DNA from: Planctomycetota bacterium
GTDB lineage: Bacteria > Planctomycetota > B15-G4 > JADJEK01
DNA length: 61,242 bases
Assembly (NCBI GenBank): GCA_044225365.1
Contig: JBGAIQ010000030.1
Coordinates: forward strand, 1-61,242
Reading direction: 5' to 3'
Made by a program: the position numbers and the translations under genes. This document shows positions 64-49,227 of the stretch, in pieces (the stretch's first letter is position 1; every line of letters starts with the position of its first letter). The notes below the pieces were generated by a model. That model was not told the origin of the DNA. It saw only the letters and a program-made list of their open reading frames with translations, and searched no databases.

Positions 64-139
64 GGGCCCGTAGCTCAATGGTTAGAGCAGTGGACTCATA
101 ATCCATCGGTTCCCGGTTCGAGTCCGGGCGGGCCCACCA
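64..139 (+). tRNA. tRNA with CAU anticodon, most likely tRNA-Ile2 (lysidine type); elongator tRNA-Met not excluded
   Basis: GGGCCCG/CGGGCCC acceptor stem, TAGCTCAATGGTTAGAGC D-arm, GTGGA-CTCATAA-TCCAT anticodon arm, GGTTCGAGTCC T-arm and encoded CCA. G1:C72 is paired, so it is not the initiator. Confidence 0.93.
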
Positions 140-40900: not shown

Positions 40901-41297
40901 GCGATTCTTCGCTCGCGACGAAAGAAGCCGGCCGCGGCGTGCACCGCGGGATCGATGGGCTACACTGCGTACACGACACCCGAGCCGGCGACGAATCGTA
41001 GAGGTTCGCGGCTTGCCGATTCCGCGATGAAGGGCGTGGACCCCAGCGTTCCGCCGCCGGACTTCGGGCGAGTGCTCAGGATTTCGCTGCGGGAGCGACG
41101 GTCTCCTGCCGATCTCATGGGTAGGGACGGGCGGCGCTGACGCCGGACGTTTCCTCTTTGGCAGAACGACTCGATCTTGGTGTGGTGCCAGGCCCGCTCT
41201 TTCTCGCCTGGTGACGCGCCTGACCGCGCGGCTTTCGATTCGTCCCCGCGCGGCCGTTCGGCTCGACGAACCCTCGTTCCATCGAGGGAGGTCTCGA

Positions 41298-42356
41298 ATG
41301 CTGCACGTTACGCTTTCGGTCAAACACGGGATCCGCGACGAGAACCTCGAACGACTGTTCGAGCGCATACGGGAGAAGGTAGTGGAGCGACTGAACGGCG
41401 AGTGCCTCGATCAGGTCTCGCTCCACGCCGAAGTCGAACTGAGCTCGCATCGTCGCGAGGGAATGGCGCGGCTCACCCTCGACCTTCCTGGTGGCGCACT
41501 ACACGCCGACGCACGCGGCCGCAGTCATCTCCAGGCGCTGCGAATGGCGAACGACGCGCTGCTCTCCGAGTTGAAGACGCGGCGTCGAAAGGACCGTGAG
41601 CGAGAGCGCGACGCGACGACCATACGGCCCGTGAATGGGCATTCGGCCGACATCGGGGTGGGCGATTCCACCGCCAAGATCGAGCCCGATCTCGCACAGC
41701 GCGTTGCGGAGACGATGCCGGAGCTCCACTCGTTCGTGCGACGCGAGATCGCGCTCCACGCGGAGGATGGACTCACCGCGTCACCTCCGATCGAATCCGA
41801 CGATGTCGTCGACGAAGCGCTGCTGCAAGCACTCGCGACCCACGCGAATTGCCCCGACGACGTGCCCTTCGATCGCTACGTCTTCAGTTGCGCGTTCGAC
41901 GTCATCCTCGCCGAGATCGAGCGCCGGAGGAACGAACGGCAAGCGGACTCGCTCGAGAGCGAGATCTCGACGAATCGGTCGTTCGCGGCATTCGACACGC
42001 TCTGCGTCCTCGATTCGCTCCAGGAGACCGATGCGGCGTCGGACGACGCGATGGATGGCGCGATGGGAGATTCCCCGGCAATGCGGATTCCCCGAACGCT
42101 CGGCGAAGCTCTCGCCGACGACCGCGCTCGCGCCGGCGACGTGGAACTCGTCGGCCGGGATCTGCGCTACGCGGTCATGAGCGCGATTCGTCACCTTCCG
42201 CTCGATGAACGTCGCGCCCTGTCGCTCGTCGCGTTCCAGGGTCTGCCCGTTCCCGAGGCGGGACGGCGAATGCAGCGGAGTCCGCTCGAAGTCACGACGT
42301 TGATGGAGCAGGCGCGCATCGACGTGCGTCGCGAACTCCTGGCGAAGGGGTACTGA
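41298..42356 (+). CDS. Fusion of an HPF/RaiA(S30AE)-like domain with sigma70/ECF region 2- and 4-like domains
   Basis: GGGAGG SD; N-terminal RLTLDLPGGALHADA.......ALRMA.DAL..ELK; central L.SFVRRE....DDVVDEALL.A; C-terminal AI..LP.DERRAL.LV..QGL...EA...M.RS. Confidence 0.72.
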   Translation: MLHVTLSVKHGIRDENLERLFERIREKVVERLNGECLDQVSLHAEVELSSHRREGMARLTLDLPGGALHADARGRSHLQALRMANDALLSELKTRRRKDRERERDATTIRPVNGHSADIGVGDSTAKIEPDLAQRVAETMPELHSFVRREIALHAEDGLTASPPIESDDVVDEALLQALATHANCPDDVPFDRYVFSCAFDVILAEIERRRNERQADSLESEISTNRSFAAFDTLCVLDSLQETDAASDDAMDGAMGDSPAMRIPRTLGEALADDRARAGDVELVGRDLRYAVMSAIRHLPLDERRALSLVAFQGLPVPEAGRRMQRSPLEVTTLMEQARIDVRRELLAKGY

Positions 42357-42402
42357 AAGCGCACCATTGCGAGGACCCTTCGGGTTCGATCGAATCGTCG
42401 CG

Positions 42403-43986
42403 ATGGCGAACGAACACAGAGAGCACGACCTCGTCGCGGCTGCGCTCTACTCCGAGCTGCTTTCCGCCATCACCGAGGAGATGGGCTCGCATCTGCGGCG
42501 GGCGGCGTTCTCGCCCAACATCAAGGAACGTCGCGACTACTCGTGCGCGCTGTTCCTCGGCGACGGAACGCTTGTGGCGCAGGCCGCGCACATCCCGGTG
42601 CATCTCGGCTCGTCGTCGCTCTCGGTGCGCGCCGTCCTCGCGTCGCTCGAACTCGAGGAGGGCGACGAAGCGATCCTGAACGATCCGTTTGCCGGCGGGA
42701 CGCATCTGCCCGACGTCACGCTCGTGCGGCCGGTGTACCTGAAGAAGGGGCGCGGCCGAAGGAACGCACCCGACTTCTTCCTGCTCAACCGCGCTCATCA
42801 CGCCGACATCGGCGGAGCGACGCCGGGCTCGATGGGGCTCGCGCGCGACGTCCACGCCGAGGGCTTTCGGATCCCGCCCGTCCATTTCGTGCGAGGAGGC
42901 GAGTTGAGTCGGGACTTCGCGACGCTCTTTCGTGCCCAAGTGCGCCAGAGCGAGGAACGATTCGCCGACCTCGTCGCGCAGCGCGCGGCGAACACGCTCG
43001 GCGAGAGTCGGCTTCGCGATCTTGCGATGCGAGAGTCGCTGCCGCGACTCGTCGAGGGTGCCCGCGCGTTGCCCCTCGCCACGGCGTTCGCCATGCGGCA
43101 AGCGTTGTCGAGGCTCGCGCGGGGAGTCCATCGCTTCGAAGATCGCCTGGACGGCGACGGATTCTCCGATCGACCGATCCGCATCCGGCTCGCGCTCACG
43201 ATCGCGCGCGGCGGCGCGACGTTCGACTTCCGCGGGAGCGACGAGCAAGTCGACGGTCCGGTCAATGCGAACCTCGCGATCACGCTCTCCTGCGTGGGGT
43301 ACGCACTGCGTTGCCTGCTGGCGGGATCGGCGCCCTTCAACGACGGCGTACTCGAGCCGGTGCGGGTGATCGCTCCAAAAGGTTCCATCGTCAACGCCGT
43401 GGCTCCCGCCGCGGTTGCGGCGGGTAACGTCGAGACGTCCCAGCGTATCGTCGACGTCGTGTTCGGAGCGCTTTCCAAGGCATTGCCCGCGCGAGTCGGT
43501 GCGGCGTCGGCGGGCACGATGAGCAACACGAGTTTCGGCAACTCGCGCTTCACCTACTACGAGACGATGGGTGGCGGCAGCGGCGCCACCGCGATGGCAG
43601 ACGGCGCGAGTGCGGTGCAGACCCACATGACGAACACCCTCAACACGCCGATCGAGATGCTGGAGGTGAGTTGCCCGCTCCGCGTCGTGCGTTATGCGAT
43701 ACGACGCGGATCCGGCGGACGCGGCGCGCACCGCGGCGGCGACGGCATCGTTCGGGAGTTCGAGGCGCGAGAGCCGATGGTGGCTTCGTTGCTCGCGGAG
43801 CGCCATGCTCGGGGACCCTACGGCCTGAACGGCGGTCGCGCGGGTCGCGCCGGCGCGGCGAGCGTGCGACGCGCGGGGTCGCGGGCGAAGGAGAAGGTGC
43901 CCGCGAAAGCGACGCTGGCGTTGCGTCGCGGTGATGTGTTGTGCGTCGAGACGCCGGGCGGTGGTGGACACGGAGTGGAACGATGA
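42403..43986 (+). CDS. Hydantoinase B/oxoprolinase-family protein
   Basis: EEMG..L.RAAFSPNIKERRDYSCALF; HIPVHLGS; NDPFAGGTHLPD; GNVETSQR; HMTNTLNTP.E; TPGGGGHG. Confidence 0.95.
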   Translation: MANEHREHDLVAAALYSELLSAITEEMGSHLRRAAFSPNIKERRDYSCALFLGDGTLVAQAAHIPVHLGSSSLSVRAVLASLELEEGDEAILNDPFAGGTHLPDVTLVRPVYLKKGRGRRNAPDFFLLNRAHHADIGGATPGSMGLARDVHAEGFRIPPVHFVRGGELSRDFATLFRAQVRQSEERFADLVAQRAANTLGESRLRDLAMRESLPRLVEGARALPLATAFAMRQALSRLARGVHRFEDRLDGDGFSDRPIRIRLALTIARGGATFDFRGSDEQVDGPVNANLAITLSCVGYALRCLLAGSAPFNDGVLEPVRVIAPKGSIVNAVAPAAVAAGNVETSQRIVDVVFGALSKALPARVGAASAGTMSNTSFGNSRFTYYETMGGGSGATAMADGASAVQTHMTNTLNTPIEMLEVSCPLRVVRYAIRRGSGGRGAHRGGDGIVREFEAREPMVASLLAERHARGPYGLNGGRAGRAGAASVRRAGSRAKEKVPAKATLALRRGDVLCVETPGGGGHGVER

Positions 43987-44525
43987 GGATGTCGAAGGTC
44001 GTGCCCGCAATGTCGTCGGTGATCGCGTGCGGGCTCCTCGCATTCACGGGGGCCGGGTGTACGCCGAGCGTCGACTACGAGAACGTCGAGGGGATCGAGC
44101 ATTCCGACGACGAGTTCTTTCGTTACGTCGATTATCCCGACACGTCGGTCGATGTCGCGTTCTCGACGGTCGAGCGCCTCGTGCGTACGCACTTCGCCGG
44201 ATCGCGGGTGATGATCGACCGCGAGCGCCACACCCTGGAGACGGAGCCGCGCCCGTTCGCGAGCGTGCCGCAGCGCATCACGTTCTTCGCGCAGGTCACC
44301 GAACGCGAGGCGGCGGCGCGAGTCGAGCTCTTCGCCAAGGTGGACCGTCTCGTCGAGGACGCGAAGAAGAGTCCCACGAACCCCTGGAAGTACATCGGCG
44401 CCGATGCGCGTCTCGAGAACCAGGTGTTCGAGGAACTATGGGACGCGCTCGTCGTGAGCAAGCGGGTGAAGGTGGGCGAGACGGCGCCTGCACTGCCCCA
44501 TGCGGAGCCATCGACGAAGCCCTGA
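43983..44525 (+). CDS. Hypothetical lipoprotein
   Basis: ATGA overlap with the upstream gene; LLAFTGAG-C lipobox-like signal. Confidence 0.72.
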   Translation: MRMSKVVPAMSSVIACGLLAFTGAGCTPSVDYENVEGIEHSDDEFFRYVDYPDTSVDVAFSTVERLVRTHFAGSRVMIDRERHTLETEPRPFASVPQRITFFAQVTEREAAARVELFAKVDRLVEDAKKSPTNPWKYIGADARLENQVFEELWDALVVSKRVKVGETAPALPHAEPSTKP

Positions 44526-44557
44526 GCCTCGAGGCGGAAGACGGGATTTTGCAAGGG

Positions 44558-44582
44558 AAAGGGGGCGGACGAATCCGCCCCC
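44558..44582 (-). terminator. Intrinsic terminator-like hairpin
   Basis: Minus strand GGGGGCGGA-TTCG-TCCGCCCCC-TTT: 9-bp stem, UUCG loop, short U tail. Confidence 0.7.
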
Positions 44583-44590
44583 TACACTGG

Positions 44591-44767
44591 GATGAGGCTT
44601 GACGTACCCACAAGGGGCCCGCCGGCCAGCTTGCGACTAGGTAGGTAGCCTCCGTGGGTCGTAACTGCCGTTCATGAGCAAGACCACCTCCTTTCGTAAC
44701 AGGGCCACGTCGCACTCCCAGGCACCACACCCACGGCAGGGTGATCTGGCCAGAAGGCGACCTCTCA
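44591..44767 (-). ncRNA. Candidate structured RNA (long interrupted rod, 6S-like size) containing a strong SD and a 12-codon ORF
   Basis: Nested stems read by eye on the minus strand: CTGGCCAG/CTGGCCGG, CCGTGGGT/ACCCACGG, TGCC/GGCA, GAGTGCGAC/GTCTTGCTC; intergenic; followed by the terminator. Confidence 0.55.
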
Positions 44768-45117
44768 CGACACGTCGCGCTGCGTAGCGCGACACGACGC
44801 AAGGGTCCTACACGGATCCCTGCGGCCCGAGGCTCCCCGTTCGGATTCAGCGCTTTGCGCCATCGTCGCGGTCGGCCTCGGAGTCATTTCGAGTCGTCTG
44901 CGATGCGTCTTCGCGTCCATCGACGCGGTCGATGCATCGCCCGCTAAGAATTGAATCGGAGATTTCGGTCTCCGTCCACAGCGAAAAAGTAGCCGATGTT
45001 CGCGGGACCGCCAAATCGCCAGCAGAAACTTCGTGCAGGCCAGGGGATTCCGTTTCAGCAGAGCACGCGGGATGAATTTGGGAAGCGCGGACGTCCGGGA
45101 TATCGTGGGCCCCCGAT

Positions 45118-47859
45118 ATGAGTGAAAACGCCACGATTCCGCGCCGCGGGGGCAACTCGCGATCGTCGTTCCTGTTCCTCCTGATCGGGGTCGTCGCATT
45201 CGGGTACGTGATGCTGCGGCGGGGTCGCGTCGAGGACCTCGTCCCCATCGTTCGCGAGAGTCGCATCGCGCTTGTCGATCGGCTCGAAGCCGCGGAACAG
45301 ATCGACGGGTTCCCGAAGCACGAGCGATGGGTCGCCCCGTGGAACGTCGCCGCGGTGAACGTCGACGATCCCGCGATCCCGATCCTGTTGCCGGAGAACG
45401 GCTCGATCGCGTTCCGCGATCTCCCGATCCACGCGGGCGCCGAGCTGCGATTCGCCGCGTGCGCCGAGTTCGTTCCGCCCGAGGGCATGGAGTGGGCACC
45501 GGCGAGGATTCCCAAGGGTGCCGCGCACAGCACGATCGAGTTCACCCTCACGGCGACGAAGCGAACCGCAAAGCAGGACTCGAAGAACCGCCGCGTCCTC
45601 ACCGCGGTCCAACTCGACCTCGAGGCTGGAGTGGACCTTCCGAAGCGCACGGCGTACGTCGTGAAGCTCCCGGTGGAATGGGCGGGCGAGCACATCGACC
45701 TGACGATCGACACCAAGACGACGCGTTCGGGAGCCGCGGGGCCCGTCGAGGGCGAATACTGGTTGCCGGCGATCGGCAGCCCCGTGATCGCGTCGGCGGG
45801 AGAGAAGCATCGCGTCGGCGAGCTCACGCAGCACGTGGAGACGACGCTCGTCGATCTGCTCGAGGCCTATCAACAGGCGATTGCTGACGACTCGGAACTC
45901 GAATGGGTGAGATCGTTCGACGATTCGGAGATCTTCGCGATCAAGCGAGTGGCGGGCCGCGAGGCGGAGAAGCTCCTGATCGCGCAGCGGGCCTGTGTGC
46001 CTGCCTTCGACGTCGGCGGCAAGCGCGACGCGGAGCGCTACGGTGTCGAGCCCGCGCTCCTGTTCGGCCTCGATGGCACACTCGTGCGCTACGAGTTCGA
46101 CGTGCCGCAGGGTCGCTCGGAGCTGCGCTTCGACATCGGCGTCGATCACCGCTCGACGGGCGTCGGTGCCGCGGCGTTTCGAGTCCTGATCGATGGGCAG
46201 CCGGCCCTCGAACGCCGCCTCGAACCCGGAGCGACGAAGGCCGACGCCGGATGGCACGCGGTCGCGATCGATCTCTCGCCGCACGCGGGCCAGCGCGTGA
46301 AGATCGAGTTCGCCGGCCGACTCGATTCGTCGCAGTCCAAGACGATGCACGTTAGGGAGGCGCAACCGCTCGGGCCCGCGATCGAGTACGACCTCGAGGT
46401 GAAGAGGGTCCAAGCCGCCTTCGGAAGGCCGCGCATCGTCGCGATCGCAGACGTTCCGCGCCGCCTCGCGGCGAAGAAGGATCCCGCGCGACCGTCGGTG
46501 ATCGTCGTCAACATCGAGACGCTGCGCGCGCGCGAACTCGGCTGTTACGGTGGAAAGGAGGACGTGAGTCCCGAGATCGACCGCCTCGCGCTCGAAGGCG
46601 TGCGCGTCGATCCGCTGATCAGCGTCGCGCCATGGACCGCGCCGTCCGTCGCCTCGCTCCTCACCGGGCTCTACCCGTATTCGCACGGAGTGATCTCGTA
46701 CGCGCAGACGTTCCTCGCCGATTCGCTCGACACGCTGGGAGAGCGCGCGCAGCGCGAGGGAGTGACCACCGCCGCGTTCGTGACGAACGATCTGCTGTCG
46801 CGTGAGAAGAACTTCGATCAGGGCTTCGAGACATACTGCGCGGTTCCGTACGCGAACTCGCGACAGGTCGTCTCGGCGTTCGAGGACTGGCTCGAGGACA
46901 ACGCCGATCTGCAGTTCTTCGCCTACCTCCATCTCTTCGAGCCGCACGATCCGTGCAACGCGCCTGGCGACGATCTCGATCGATTCGTGCCGGACGATTT
47001 GAAGGGACGGGACCCACGCGCCGCACTCGGTCGGATCTTCGCAGCGATCGGCAAGGGCGATCCGCCGGCGTTCGACGATCCCGACGTGCGATTGCTTCGT
47101 GGGCGCTACCTCGGCGAGATCCGCTACGCCGACCGCCAGATCGCACGGCTTCGCGCCTTGATCGAGAAGAAGAACCTCACGGGGCGCGTCGTGCTGATCG
47201 TGACGGGCGATCACGGCGAGGAGTTCTGCGAGCACGGTCTCATCGGACACGGCTCGCATTGCTTCGACGAGAGCGTGGCAGTGCCGTTCATCGCGTGGGG
47301 GCCGGGCGTCGTCCCCGCGGGCGAGGTCATCGAAGGGCCGATCGAGAACACGTCGATCTTCGGGACGGTGCTCGATCTCCTCGGCGTGCCCTACGACTCG
47401 AAGCGCGTGAAGCCAGCGATCCGCTTCGCCACCGGGCCGCAGTCGACGCCCGCGTACTCGTCGACGGAGCAGGGCATCCGGGCGATCGAGGGCGTGACGA
47501 TCAAGACCATGACGGTGCACCGGTTGCGGACGAAGGCGCTGTCGTTCCTCTTCTCGCCGAAGGGCACTCACGCCGAGCCCTCGCAGTGCGCGGCTTTCGA
47601 TCTCACGTCCGATCCGTTCGAATCGAAGGACCGGTCGCAGGACGCGGGCTTCGATCTCGCGACACCGAAGAAGATGCTCGATGCCGCTTGGCGCTTCGCG
47701 ACGAGTGAATCGCACGGTCTCACGATCGATCTCGCCGACCCCGTGACGGCGGGGATCCTGCGCCAGATGGGTTATCTCGCGGGGACTCGCACCAATGCAG
47801 CGGGCGCGCTCTACCAGAACGGCGACGATTGCGGACCGAAGTCGAAGCAGGGCAAATGA
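45118..47859 (+). CDS. Membrane-anchored sulfatase/alkaline-phosphatase-superfamily protein with N-terminal beta-sandwich (NPCBM-like) domains
   Basis: N-terminal TM; IETLRA..LGCYG; APWTAPSVASLLTG; YLHLFEPH; Y.GEIRYAD; TGDHGEEF.EHG..GHG. Confidence 0.88.
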   Translation: MSENATIPRRGGNSRSSFLFLLIGVVAFGYVMLRRGRVEDLVPIVRESRIALVDRLEAAEQIDGFPKHERWVAPWNVAAVNVDDPAIPILLPENGSIAFRDLPIHAGAELRFAACAEFVPPEGMEWAPARIPKGAAHSTIEFTLTATKRTAKQDSKNRRVLTAVQLDLEAGVDLPKRTAYVVKLPVEWAGEHIDLTIDTKTTRSGAAGPVEGEYWLPAIGSPVIASAGEKHRVGELTQHVETTLVDLLEAYQQAIADDSELEWVRSFDDSEIFAIKRVAGREAEKLLIAQRACVPAFDVGGKRDAERYGVEPALLFGLDGTLVRYEFDVPQGRSELRFDIGVDHRSTGVGAAAFRVLIDGQPALERRLEPGATKADAGWHAVAIDLSPHAGQRVKIEFAGRLDSSQSKTMHVREAQPLGPAIEYDLEVKRVQAAFGRPRIVAIADVPRRLAAKKDPARPSVIVVNIETLRARELGCYGGKEDVSPEIDRLALEGVRVDPLISVAPWTAPSVASLLTGLYPYSHGVISYAQTFLADSLDTLGERAQREGVTTAAFVTNDLLSREKNFDQGFETYCAVPYANSRQVVSAFEDWLEDNADLQFFAYLHLFEPHDPCNAPGDDLDRFVPDDLKGRDPRAALGRIFAAIGKGDPPAFDDPDVRLLRGRYLGEIRYADRQIARLRALIEKKNLTGRVVLIVTGDHGEEFCEHGLIGHGSHCFDESVAVPFIAWGPGVVPAGEVIEGPIENTSIFGTVLDLLGVPYDSKRVKPAIRFATGPQSTPAYSSTEQGIRAIEGVTIKTMTVHRLRTKALSFLFSPKGTHAEPSQCAAFDLTSDPFESKDRSQDAGFDLATPKKMLDAAWRFATSESHGLTIDLADPVTAGILRQMGYLAGTRTNAAGALYQNGDDCGPKSKQGK

Positions 47860-49227
<1,368 letters not shown>

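What the first reader, a model, noticed from the sequence alone, without database searches (positions are those of the whole stretch)
44558..44767. Unannotated structured RNA displaying a near-perfect complement of the 16S 3' end, plus a 12-aa ORF
Seen: on the minus strand, about 180 nt fold by eye into a long nested rod with an asymmetric internal bubble, followed by a UUCG terminator hairpin. Near the apex is GAAAGGAGGTGGTC (44682-44695), which matches the reverse complement of the canonical 16S tail GATCACCTCCTTTC at 13/14 (the exception would be a G-U pair). It precedes ATG-AAC-GGC...TAG (44675-44637, MNGSYDPRRLPT). It is a stand-alone unit, convergent with the left gene and divergent from the right gene. 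Inference: a divergent 6S RNA, a 30S-binding decoy RNA, or a dual-function sRNA/peptide gene.
Basis: partly seen in the sequence, partly recalled or inferred. Interest (0 to 1): 0.75.

Follow-up and report, generated by a model that had tools for sequence, protein, structure and literature searches.

The report
Ribosome-grabbing mini-gene in Planctomycetes
This is an unannotated, stand-alone mini-gene whose RNA carries an unusually long match to the ribosome's docking tail in front of a 12-codon reading frame, a kind of gene so far described only in Alphaproteobacteria and still of unknown function.

Summary
On the minus strand, GAAAGGAGGTGGTC (44695-44682) complements the genome's own 16S tail at 13 of 14 positions plus one G-U. 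ATG...TAG (44675-44637) and a UUCG terminator hairpin follow.

It is not 6S RNA. A true 6S lies elsewhere in the genome, and no Rfam family reaches its threshold here.

The element is a single-copy gene, found in 11 of 11 genomes of the window's family (Phycisphaeraceae-type MAGs). Diverged forms occur across Planctomycetota: 36 of 151 sampled genomes, and 21 of 23 and 11 of 11 in two other families. Neighbouring genes differ between families.

All 34 aligned members share:
- an extended Shine-Dalgarno sequence;
- a start codon 5-12 nt after it;
- a 9-17 codon frame whose stop sits at a fixed structural position;
- a covarying rod in which an internal G-run pairs with a C/U run;
- a CGRCGG apical loop;
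- a terminator.

The peptide itself is poorly conserved.

The closest known kind is the alphaproteobacterial rre small mRNAs (rreB, rreR; Rfam CC2171 is of this type). These bind 30S subunits, are weakly translated, and have no known function. The window copy is a derived variant: a 14-nt complement and an AUG 6 nt downstream. I found no homology to the alphaproteobacterial genes beyond the Shine-Dalgarno block. Expression is untested.

The parts
44771..44796 (-). 5' hairpin P0: a 10-bp stem around the palindrome GTCGCGC-N6-GCGCGAC
   Evidence: Read. It is conserved in the family alignment. Its two G-U pairs exist only on the minus strand. One relative (G004) carries a roughly 38-nt insertion in the loop. 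Whether this hairpin is part of the transcript is inferred, not shown.
44709..44761 (-). Variable hairpin P1
   Evidence: It is present in the MFE and centroid folds. Relatives have hairpins of different sequence and length at the same place (read by eye; not counted).
44701..44706 (-). GGCCCU, an internal mimic of the anti-Shine-Dalgarno sequence that can pair with GG-UGGUC, the 3' half of the Shine-Dalgarno block
   Evidence: RNAalifold predicts pairs at columns 102-107 with 120-126. Support from counting is weak to moderate: helices 1-2 are 83-87% paired, mostly through one-sided changes. In local folds the 3' half of the Shine-Dalgarno block has at least 4 of 7 bases paired in 26 of 34 members.
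44682..44695 (-). Extended Shine-Dalgarno block GAAAGGAGGUGGUC
   Evidence: It is invariant in the 11 complete family copies; the 12th copy is cut by a contig end. Duplex energy with the genome's own 16S tail is -24.1 kcal/mol, or -26.4 with one more U-G pair, against -8.7 for GGAGG alone.
44637..44675 (-). 12-codon ORF ATG...TAG (MNGSYDPRRLPT)
   Evidence: Within the family, indels come in threes and TAG and TGA interchange at one alignment column. Start and stop are in frame in 34 of 34 members from 15 families.
44649..44653 (-). Internal Shine-Dalgarno-like G-run GGAGG, 9 nt before the stop codon
   Evidence: A G-run (GGAGG, GGGGG or GGUGG) is kept across families while the amino acids it encodes change among RR, GG and RW.
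44594..44652 (-). Rod. GAGGCU pairs with AGCCUC, CCU with GGG, CAAG with CUUG and GGCC with GGCC. The apical loop is GGCG (44623-44620).
   Evidence: Helices 3-5 are 91-94% paired, and all 16 of their pairs show changes on both sides. For the whole structure there are 114 double-sided cells against 31 in shuffles and at most 37 when the partner columns are slid. The apical loop consensus CGRCGG was read.
44553..44582 (-). Intrinsic-terminator-like hairpin (9 bp, UUCG loop) with the tail UUUCCCUU
   Evidence: A GC-rich hairpin follows in all 34 copies, with a T-rich tail on the element's strand in most of them (read by eye). The consensus scan did not list it, because the T-run is short.

Best explanation
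The locus is a stand-alone small gene of the rre kind: a short, structured mRNA built to be captured by the ribosome.

Proposed mechanism:
1. A 30S subunit docks its 16S tail on the GAAAGGA bases. These are exposed in a hairpin loop.
2. The tail displaces the internal mimic GGCCCU and forms a 14-15 bp helix with GAAAGGAGGUGGUC.
3. Translation starts at AUG 44675.
4. The ribosome reads 12 codons. In doing so it melts the 5' arm of the rod, which contains a second Shine-Dalgarno-like GGAGG.
5. It stops at UAG 44639-44637, at the foot of the apical hairpin.

The output is most likely not the peptide. Ribosome binding and passage probably control the life or shape of the RNA, by ribosome-dependent turnover or by exposing the C/U-rich 3' arm and the CGRCGG loop.

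Shown here: sequence, conservation, frame conservation, covariation and single-copy distribution. Inferred: transcription, 30S binding, translation and any regulatory output.
For: - The complement to the genome's own 16S tail is real and strong: -24.1 kcal/mol against -8.7 for GGAGG alone.
- The 12-mer is unique among intergenic sites in the genome.
- Distribution is one copy per genome in most hits: 11 of 11 relatives plus the own genome, 21 of 23 in family f58, and 11 of 11 in f55, where one genome has a second weak hit. In a phylum sample, 36 of 151 genomes hit at E<=0.01.
- An exact pattern scan of the genome-contig collection (about 185,000 species genomes by the tool's description) found only the 10 relatives.
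- Neighbouring genes differ between families. All 34 copies are followed by a GC-rich hairpin on the element's strand, with a T-rich tail in most.
- In 34 of 34 members from 15 families, a start codon 5-12 nt after GGAGG is in frame with a stop at one structural position. In 26 of 34 the stop begins at +2 of the helix-4 arm. Frame length varies from 9 to 17 codons.
- The rod covaries strongly.
- The same design is documented experimentally for rreB: a single-stranded 5' seed with the rest of the complement held in a hairpin, 30S co-sedimentation, weak translation, and half-life rising from 10 to 37 min when GUG is changed to UAG (PMC5711450).
Against: - There is no expression evidence at all. 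No RNA run was available, and the promoter and transcription start are unknown (one search found no sigma-70-like site).
- The window copy misses two rre hallmarks. Its complement is 14 nt with a G-U, not 16-17 nt. Its AUG lies 6 nt beyond the complement instead of overlapping it as a GUG.
- My covariance model scores alphaproteobacterial rre/CC2171 loci (14.1, 9.9 and 7.8 bits) no better than an antisense-16S control (15.8 bits). Common descent is therefore not shown.
- The helix masking the Shine-Dalgarno sequence rests mostly on invariant or one-sided changes.
- The alignment used for pair counting was fitted to the model, which favours the structure.
- The family members are related to each other, so the counts are not independent.
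- Within the window's family the peptide is fairly conserved (MCxCYDQRRLPT-like). A peptide function is therefore not excluded.
Confidence: 0.6

Rival explanations
1. It is a micro-protein gene. The 12-residue peptide (MCxCYDQRRLPT in relatives) is the functional product, and the long Shine-Dalgarno sequence and RNA structure only tune its synthesis.
For: - The frame is conserved in 34 of 34 members.
- The peptide is fairly conserved within the window's family and within family f55 (an SP..RP motif).
- RreB and RreR are likewise conserved within their clades (PMC5711450).
- An M-S/C-x-C start recurs in several Planctomycetota families and in CC2171-type genes of Methylobacterium and Skermanella.
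- Ser at position 2 is encoded by both UCN and AGY codons.
Against: - Across families the peptide is not conserved. The best-kept part is a G-run that is read as RR, GG or RW.
- The window copy has lost both Cys residues.
- Changes within the family are almost all non-synonymous, while kept codons are kept at all three positions.
- The codons are A/T-ending in a genome where the flanking ORFs kept (filtered at GC3 >0.8) have GC3 of 0.81-0.86.
- Synthetic RreB and RreR were unstructured, and overproducing RreB had no growth effect.
Confidence: 0.15
2. It is a non-coding RNA that acts in trans. It would either titrate 30S subunits (a decoy) or base-pair with targets through its C/U run or CGRCGG loop. 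On this reading the ORF is incidental.
For: - The complement to the 16S tail is far longer than translation needs.
- The rod and apical loop are conserved at the RNA level.
- rreB sits mainly on 30S subunits and is barely translated.
Against: - Start and stop are in frame in 34 of 34 members despite indels, and TAG, TGA and TAA interchange at the stop position. This is not expected of an incidental ORF.
- 20-fold overproduction of ribosome-binding rreB did not slow growth, and the authors argue against simple titration.
Confidence: 0.15
3. It is a cis-acting leader or attenuator, or a promoter-region element, that controls a neighbouring gene such as the divergent sulfatase-domain protein or the convergent histidine kinase.
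For: Within the window's family the element always lies divergent from a roughly 900-aa sulfatase-domain gene. In 10 relatives it is convergent with a hybrid histidine kinase.
Against: - No gene follows on the same strand in the window or its family.
- A terminator follows the rod.
- In other families the neighbours are unrelated: a formiminotransferase gene, der and nuoA, or an EF-hand protein and a kinase.
Confidence: 0.04
4. It is a divergent 6S RNA.
For: Only its size and a rod-like appearance by eye.
Against: - A true 6S is present elsewhere in the genome (53.3 bits).
- There is no 6S signal here even at E<=10.
- The conserved features are a ribosome-binding site and a reading frame, not a central open-promoter-like bubble.
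Confidence: 0.01

Closest known systems
rre small mRNAs of Alphaproteobacteria (rreB in Bradyrhizobiaceae, rreR in Rhodobacterales; Hahn et al., RNA Biol 2017, PMC5711450; abstract, Results and Discussion read)
   Same: - Both are stand-alone short transcripts with their own terminator.
- The Shine-Dalgarno sequence is extended to cover the single-stranded 16S tail.
- A tiny ORF follows: 14-18 codons there, 9-17 here.
- The 5' bases of the complement are exposed and the rest is held in a hairpin.
- The peptide is conserved only within clades.
- The genomic context is not conserved between clades.
- Several Planctomycetota relatives meet the exact hallmark, a 17-18 nt complement ending in the G of a GUG start (L040 and L056).
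   Different: - The phylum is different: that paper's text names only four alphaproteobacterial orders.
- The window copy has a 14-nt complement with one G-U, and an AUG 6 nt further on.
- The family carries features the sections I read do not describe: an internal G-run paired to a C/U run, a stop codon at a helix junction, and a CGRCGG loop.
- I found no homology beyond the Shine-Dalgarno block.
- I did not see the rreB or rreR sequences. Figure S1 and the other supplements were not opened.
Rfam RF01867 CC2171 (Caulobacter sRNA; Northern-validated in Methylorubrum, function unknown: bioRxiv 10.1101/2022.01.24.477521, passages read)
   Same: - The 5' block GAAAGGAGGUGAUCCAGUGUCU is shared.
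- A true member from Methylobacterium (84.3 bits) starts with a 17-nt complement, then GTG and a 24-codon ORF. CC2171 is therefore itself of the rre type.
- Planctomycetota relatives give sub-threshold hits of 23-34.5 bits.
   Different: - The window scores 11.4 bits against a cut-off of 75.
- The best CC2171 hit in the own genome is the antisense strand of 16S, so the likeness is largely the complement of the 16S tail.
- CC2171-type ORFs are longer (24 codons) and carry CCUCC, not GGAGG, before the stop.
STAB-SD 5' mRNA stabiliser of Bacillus cryIIIA (recalled from memory; no call)
   Same: A near-perfect Shine-Dalgarno sequence (GAAAGGAGG) is used to hold a 30S subunit on an RNA rather than to drive high protein output.
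   Different: STAB-SD lies in the 5' UTR of a long mRNA and is not followed by its own tiny ORF. It belongs to no family with a conserved rod.
Leader-peptide attenuators
   Same: A very short translated frame whose translation remodels a downstream RNA structure.
   Different: No downstream gene is controlled here, and the element ends in its own terminator. The neighbours vary between families.

Membership tests
rre small mRNAs (rreB/rreR) | [quoted passage not shown] | tested here: not met
   The window has 14 nt, of which 13 are Watson-Crick and 1 is G-U. One further U-G pair would make 15. The feature is met in other Planctomycetota members such as L040 and L056, with 17-18 nt. The 16S tails of two of those genomes were checked and are canonical.
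rre small mRNAs (rreB/rreR) | The last base of the complement is the first base of a GTG start codon | tested here: not met
   The window has an ATG 6 nt after the complement. The feature is met in L040, L048, L055, L056, L059 and L062.
rre small mRNAs (rreB/rreR) | A tiny ORF (14-18 codons) directly behind the extended Shine-Dalgarno sequence | tested here: met
   The window has 12 codons and the family has 9-17. The frame is conserved in 34 of 34 members. This is slightly shorter than the published examples.
rre small mRNAs (rreB/rreR) | A stand-alone short transcript with its own promoter and terminator | tested here: inconclusive
   A terminator-like hairpin is present and conserved. No promoter was recognised, and no RNA data could be had.
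rre small mRNAs (rreB/rreR) | Binds the 30S subunit, is weakly translated, and decays in a start-codon-dependent way | not testable with these tools
   These are bench properties shown for rreB only.
rre small mRNAs (rreB/rreR) | Sequence homology to alphaproteobacterial rre genes | tested here: not met
   Model R2 scores 14.1, 9.9 and 7.8 bits on the Skermanella, Methylobacterium and Azospirillum loci, against 15.8 bits on an antisense-16S control. The rreB and rreR sequences themselves were not available to me.
Rfam RF01867 CC2171 | Score at or above the gathering cut-off of 75 bits | tested here: not met
   The window scores 11.4 bits, E 7.3. As a positive control, the Methylobacterium locus scores 84.3 bits.
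6S RNA (RF00013) | Match to the 6S covariance model | tested here: not met
   There is no match at the locus. The genome's 6S lies at C26:1468-1653 with 53.3 bits.
Leader-peptide transcription attenuator | A regulated gene downstream on the same strand | tested here: not met
   The next gene downstream is on the opposite strand in the window and in the relatives.

The most novel reading that the evidence does not exclude
Planctomycetota carry, once per genome, a ribosome-gated riboregulator.

- A 30S subunit invades a masked super-Shine-Dalgarno sequence through a toehold.
- One round of translation across 9-17 codons opens a covarying rod.
- The terminating ribosome is held at a stop codon placed 6-12 nt behind an internal Shine-Dalgarno-like G-run.
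- This frees a C/U-rich anti-Shine-Dalgarno-like arm and a conserved CGRCGG loop, which then act on other RNAs or on a protein.

The cell would thereby read out its free-ribosome level. Together with the alphaproteobacterial rre genes, this would define a widespread class of ribosome-sensing RNAs, either ancient or invented twice.
Probability: 0.2. Interest if true: 0.85.

Novelty: new variant of a known kind. Interest (0 to 1): 0.6.

Why it matters
- The function of rre genes was still called elusive in the 2017 paper. My library searches found only three citing papers, all from work on trpL leader peptides, judged from their listings and abstracts.
- A second, distant phylum carrying the same design shows that the design itself is under selection. 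This phylum has at least 15 families with enough divergence to see covariation and frame conservation.
- The comparison separates what is kept from what is not. Kept: the complement of the 16S tail, start and stop in frame, an internal G-run paired to a C/U run, the stop at a helix junction, and the CGRCGG loop. Not kept: the peptide.
- This turns the open question of what rre genes do into concrete mutational tests.
- The work also links Rfam CC2171 to the rre kind.
- It flags a conserved gene that genome annotation misses.

Tried and rejected
- Rfam at gathering thresholds found only a tRNA in the whole window. At E<=10 over 44400-45150 there were three weak chance-level hits: mir-6579, PrrB/RsmZ and CC2171.
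- The single-sequence fold gave z -1.22, so it is not informative alone.
- The promoter and terminator consensus scan found no promoter and did not list the terminator.
- RNA runs: no RNA holder was listed for window 41000-48500.
- L041 was a false positive of model R1. It lies inside a 550-aa ORF, has no Shine-Dalgarno block, and was driven by the string CTGGCCGGCGGGCCC. I dropped it before building A3 and A4.
- I considered that the peptide might mimic the sulfatase C/S-x-P-x-R motif because of the neighbouring gene. I dropped the idea. By eye, the neighbour has TAPSV at the nucleophile position, and the peptide motif does not hold across relatives.
- I considered complementarity of the apical loop GACGGG to 16S positions 1401-1407 (sequence recalled). 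A 7-mer match is expected by chance, so I did not pursue it.
- I considered pairing of the 5' GGCCC with the 3' side of the apical hairpin as an alternative or pseudoknot. It looks plausible by eye in families f55 and f58, but I did not count it.
- Literature searches on anti-Shine-Dalgarno, Planctomycetes and small ORFs gave nothing relevant. The rre paper surfaced.
- Seven weaker model hits without loci (six further genomes and a second hit in G059) were not inspected.

Full report
**1. What is in the sequence**

Read on the minus strand, the region holds the following in order:
- GAAAGGAGGTGGTC at 44695-44682.
- ATG at 44675, and a 12-codon frame (MNGSYDPRRLPT) ending in TAG at 44639-44637.
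- A GC-rich stretch.
- The hairpin GGGGGCGGA-UUCG-UCCGCCCCC (44582-44561), followed by UUUCCCUU.

The genome's own 16S gene ends ...GGATCACCTCCTTT|CT. One more U-G pair could follow.

The predicted duplex energy is -24.1 kcal/mol for the 14-mer, and -26.4 with the extra pair, against -8.7 for GGAGG alone.

The 12-mer AAGGAGGTGRTC occurs three times in the 6.5-Mb assembly: antisense to 16S, here, and once inside a long ORF (S-K-E-V-I-A), which I take for chance. The reversed-pattern control gave none.

The left neighbour (43941-44525, +; lipoprotein-like signal by eye, no Pfam hit) is convergent. The right neighbour (45118-47859, +) is a sulfatase-domain protein and is divergent.

**2. It is not a known RNA family and not 6S**

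- At Rfam gathering thresholds the whole window holds only a tRNA at 64-136.
- A permissive scan of 44400-45150 gives three chance-level hits. The one on this strand is CC2171 (RF01867) at 11.4 bits against a cut-off of 75.
- The genome has a proper 6S RNA elsewhere (C26:1468-1653, 53.3 bits, cut-off 46.4).

**3. Conservation in the window's own family**

*Presence.* BLASTN found the element in 10 of 11 other genomes of the window's family (f1) and in 0 of 29 genomes of the four other families of the order. Covariance model R1, built from 11 copies, found it in 11 of 11, one copy each, and in 0 of 30. The copy that BLASTN missed is cut by a contig end.

*Exact pattern.* An exact two-block pattern, run over genome contigs (one genome for each of about 185,000 species by the tool's description), returned 10 records. 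All are the same genomes as those relatives. Their titles call them Planctomycetota or Phycisphaeraceae MAGs.

*Alignment features:*
- The 14-nt block is invariant.
- The ATG is kept.
- Three indels inside the frame are each of 3 nt.
- TAG and TGA alternate at one column.
- CTGGCCGGCGGGCCC is invariant.
- The helix CAAG/CUUG changes to UCAG/CUGA and UCAU/GUGA.

*Synteny.* In every copy with enough flank, the element is divergent from a sulfatase-domain gene. In 10 relatives it is convergent with a hybrid histidine kinase (PAS-HisKA-HATPase-REC). The window has a different left neighbour.

**4. A phylum-wide family**

*Distant hits.* R1 gave weak hits (20-32 bits) in other Planctomycetota families. 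Six of the seven I inspected showed the same plan: a 16S-tail complement, usually the canonical GAAAGGAGGUGAUC, a start codon, a short frame, a hairpin and a terminator. One (L041) lay inside a gene and was dropped.

*Second model.* Model R2, built from 7 f1 representatives and these 6, hit 36 of 151 genomes of an even phylum sample at E<=0.01. Thirty-five of these genomes had one hit and one had two.
- Family f58: 21 of 23 genomes. Both misses are 84% complete.
- Family f55: 11 of 11 genomes. One has a second weak hit.
- The window's own order: f1 11 of 11. The other families gave 2 weak hits in 29 genomes.

*Context.* Neighbouring genes differ between families: a formiminotransferase-cyclodeaminase gene upstream (f55, f59), between der and nuoA (f58), and between an EF-hand protein and a Ser/Thr kinase (L042). 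This is the pattern of an independent, vertically kept small gene.

**5. Structure**

I counted pairs on the 34-sequence alignment A4, which covers 15 families.
- The structure is paired in 90.2% of cells, against 72.6% in shuffles and at most 57.8% when the partner columns are slid.
- There are 114 cells with changes on both sides, against 31 in shuffles and at most 37 when slid.
- All 16 pairs of the rod (helices 3-5) show double-sided changes.

A4 is fitted to the model, which favours the structure, and the sequences are related to each other. The slid controls share those biases and still fall far behind.

In window coordinates the rod runs from 44652 to 44594:
- GAGGCU pairs with AGCCUC.
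- CCU pairs with GGG.
- CAAG pairs with CUUG.
- GGCC pairs with GGCC.
- The apical loop is GGCG.

Across families the apical loop reads CGACGG or CGGCGG.

The 5' arm of the outer helix is a G-run (GGAGG, GGGGG or GGUGG) inside the frame. Its partner is a C/U run just before the terminator.

A second, weaker helix pairs the 3' half of the Shine-Dalgarno block with an upstream pyrimidine-rich stretch, GGCCCU in the window. In L048 that stretch reads GGGUCACCCUUU, close to the 16S tail itself. GAAAGGA is left in the loop. Support for this helix is 83-87% of cells paired, mostly through one-sided changes. In local folds the 3' half has at least 4 of 7 bases paired in 26 of 34 members. In the window's family, the A-to-G change that costs a Watson-Crick pair with 16S turns a C-A mismatch in this helix into C-G.

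**6. The frame**

A script took every ATG, GTG or TTG lying 3-13 nt after GGAGG and read to the first stop.
- In 34 of 34 sequences, one start at 5-12 nt gives a frame of 9-17 codons that ends at the same structural place.
- In 26 of 34 the stop begins at +2 of the helix-4 arm. In the rest it begins at -2, +3, +5, +13 or +16.
- Twenty-two sequences offer a single candidate start (my count from the listing), and all of them are in frame.
- Other candidate starts either stop after 1-2 codons or run on without a stop.
- All three stop codons occur.
- A covariance model does not prefer indels of three, so I see no strong selection bias. Sequences with fewer indels do score higher, however.

The peptide is not conserved between families. 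Where the G-run is GGAGG it reads RR. Where it is GGGGGG it reads GG. Where it is GGUGG it reads RW or GG. Conservation is therefore at the RNA level, together with the reading frame.

Within the window's family the codons are often A/T-ending (TGT, AGT, CAA, TAT, AAA). The flanking ORFs that one search kept, after filtering at GC3 >0.8, have GC3 of 0.81-0.86.

**7. Comparison with what is known**

A full-text search led to Hahn et al., RNA Biol 2017 (PMC5711450). I read the abstract, Results and Discussion.

What that paper reports for rreB of Bradyrhizobium:
- It is a 165-nt mRNA with a 17-nt complement of the 16S tail that ends in the G of a GTG start, followed by a 14-codon ORF.
- It co-sediments with 30S subunits.
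- The 5' extension of the Shine-Dalgarno sequence is needed for that binding.
- Translation is weak.
- Changing GUG to UAG raises the half-life from 10 to 37 min.
- Overproduction does not affect growth.
- The authors model the 5' bases as a single-stranded seed, with the rest held in a hairpin.
- Analogues with a 16-17 nt complement were found in Caulobacterales, Rhizobiales, Rhodobacterales (rreR, 18 codons) and Rhodospirillales.
- The function 'remains elusive'.

The text of that paper does not contain 'Planctomyc', 'Rfam' or 'phyla'. In the library, three papers cite it. From their listings and abstracts, all three are on trpL leader peptides. 'rreB' together with 'Shine-Dalgarno' and 'Bradyrhizobium' occurs in that one paper only. 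On these searches, the kind has not been reported outside Alphaproteobacteria. Subscription journals are not covered.

**8. Link to Rfam CC2171, and the test of homology**

A BLAST of one Planctomycetota member (L040) against PLSDB gave four loci that I examined:

| Locus | Source | What it holds | RF01867 score |
|---|---|---|---|
| L067 | Methylobacterium | 17-nt complement, GTG, 24 codons | 84.3 bits, above the cut-off |
| L069 | Skermanella | 24-codon ORF from a GTG start | 64.9 bits |
| L068 | Azospirillum plasmid | ATG start, 59-codon ORF | no hit listed |
| L070 | Phyllobacterium | antisense strand of 16S | control |

The Azospirillum case matches the paper's remark that the rre gene there is plasmid-borne and starts with ATG.

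CC2171 is therefore of the rre type. It was validated by Northern blot in Methylorubrum, and the condition affecting it is unknown (bioRxiv 10.1101/2022.01.24.477521; passages read).

Tests of homology:
- R2 scores the three alphaproteobacterial loci at 14.1, 9.9 and 7.8 bits, and the antisense-16S control at 15.8 bits.
- The best CC2171 hit in the window's genome is antisense 16S.
- I therefore cannot show common descent beyond the block that any such gene must have.
- A hint remains. The first codons GUG UCU GAC UGU of family f72 resemble GUG UCU CAU UGC and GUG UCU AAU UGU of the CC2171 type, and AUG UGU GAC UGU of the window's family.

**9. Verdict**

The finding is real and is a gene. It belongs to the rre kind by design, and it is a member of a new Planctomycetota family that is absent from Rfam.

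The window copy is a derived form:
- a 14-nt complement with one G-U;
- an AUG placed 6 nt after the complement;
- 12 codons.

By the rreB experiments (14c against 17c constructs, ATG against GTG), this form should bind 30S subunits less tightly and be translated better than the canonical form. That is an inference.

Transcription, 30S binding and translation are untested here, because no RNA run was listed. The function is unknown, as it is for all rre genes. I favour a regulatory role for ribosome binding and passage over a role for the peptide, because the peptide is not conserved between families while the frame and the RNA features are.

Noticed in passing
window 44803-44820 and 44771-44796 (minus strand): Two further hairpins lie upstream of the element: GGGAUCC-GUGUA-GGACCC and the 10-bp palindrome hairpin. 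Both recur in relatives with changed sequence (GGGUCC/GGACCC, GGGCCC/GGGCCC, GGGUCCG/CGGAUCC). Their G-U pairs fit only the element's strand. The transcript may therefore start well upstream, or these are operator or DNA-level elements in the divergent promoter region.
   Followed up: partly
window 45118-47859 (+), and L013-L022: The conserved divergent neighbour is a roughly 900-aa protein with an N-terminal membrane segment, about 430 residues without a Pfam match, and a sulfatase domain. By eye, the nucleophile position reads W-T-A-P-S-V, with Thr rather than Cys or Ser. That is more like phosphotransferases of this superfamily than true sulfatases.
   Followed up: no
L013-L021 (relatives), and PMC5711450 Fig. 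1 legend: In 10 relatives the element is convergent with a hybrid histidine kinase-response regulator gene. In Bradyrhizobium, rreB also lies next to a two-component hybrid sensor and regulator gene. This may be coincidence.
   Followed up: no
G000:C97:60750-60761 (L071): This is the only other non-rRNA AAGGAGGTGATC in the genome. It lies inside a long ORF (…GGSKEVIADF…) and is probably a chance internal Shine-Dalgarno-like site.
   Followed up: yes
L068 (Azospirillum sp. B510 plasmid pAB510d, NC_013858.1, around 339.8 kb): An extended Shine-Dalgarno sequence (GAAAGGAGGTGATCCA) with an ATG start leads into a 59-codon ORF. The ORF has a signal-peptide-like N-terminus and no annotation under it. 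It is a longer relative of the rre design.
   Followed up: partly
L067 and L069 (Methylobacterium bullatum, Skermanella mucosa): The CC2171-type loci encode 24-residue peptides that share an MS(H/N)C start and an ...ASG...A end. They carry GCCUCC, an anti-Shine-Dalgarno-like sequence, 4-5 codons before the stop. This is the opposite polarity to the GGAGG of the Planctomycetota family.
   Followed up: partly
L041 (G093:C34:27000-27111): The string CTGGCCGGCGGGCCC inside a 550-aa ORF produced a false hit of model R1. The apical hairpin sequence alone is therefore not diagnostic.
   Followed up: yes
window 64-136 (+); G000:C26:1468-1653: A tRNA gene lies at the start of the window (74.9 bits). 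The genome's 6S RNA lies on another contig.
   Followed up: no
L039, L046, L049, L057 (family f58); L037, L047 (family f55): The stretch 5' of the Shine-Dalgarno block (for example CCAAGGCCC) is also complementary to the 3' side of the apical hairpin (GGGCUUGG). This hints at an alternative pairing or pseudoknot that would compete with both the masking helix and the apical hairpin. I saw it by eye only.
   Followed up: no
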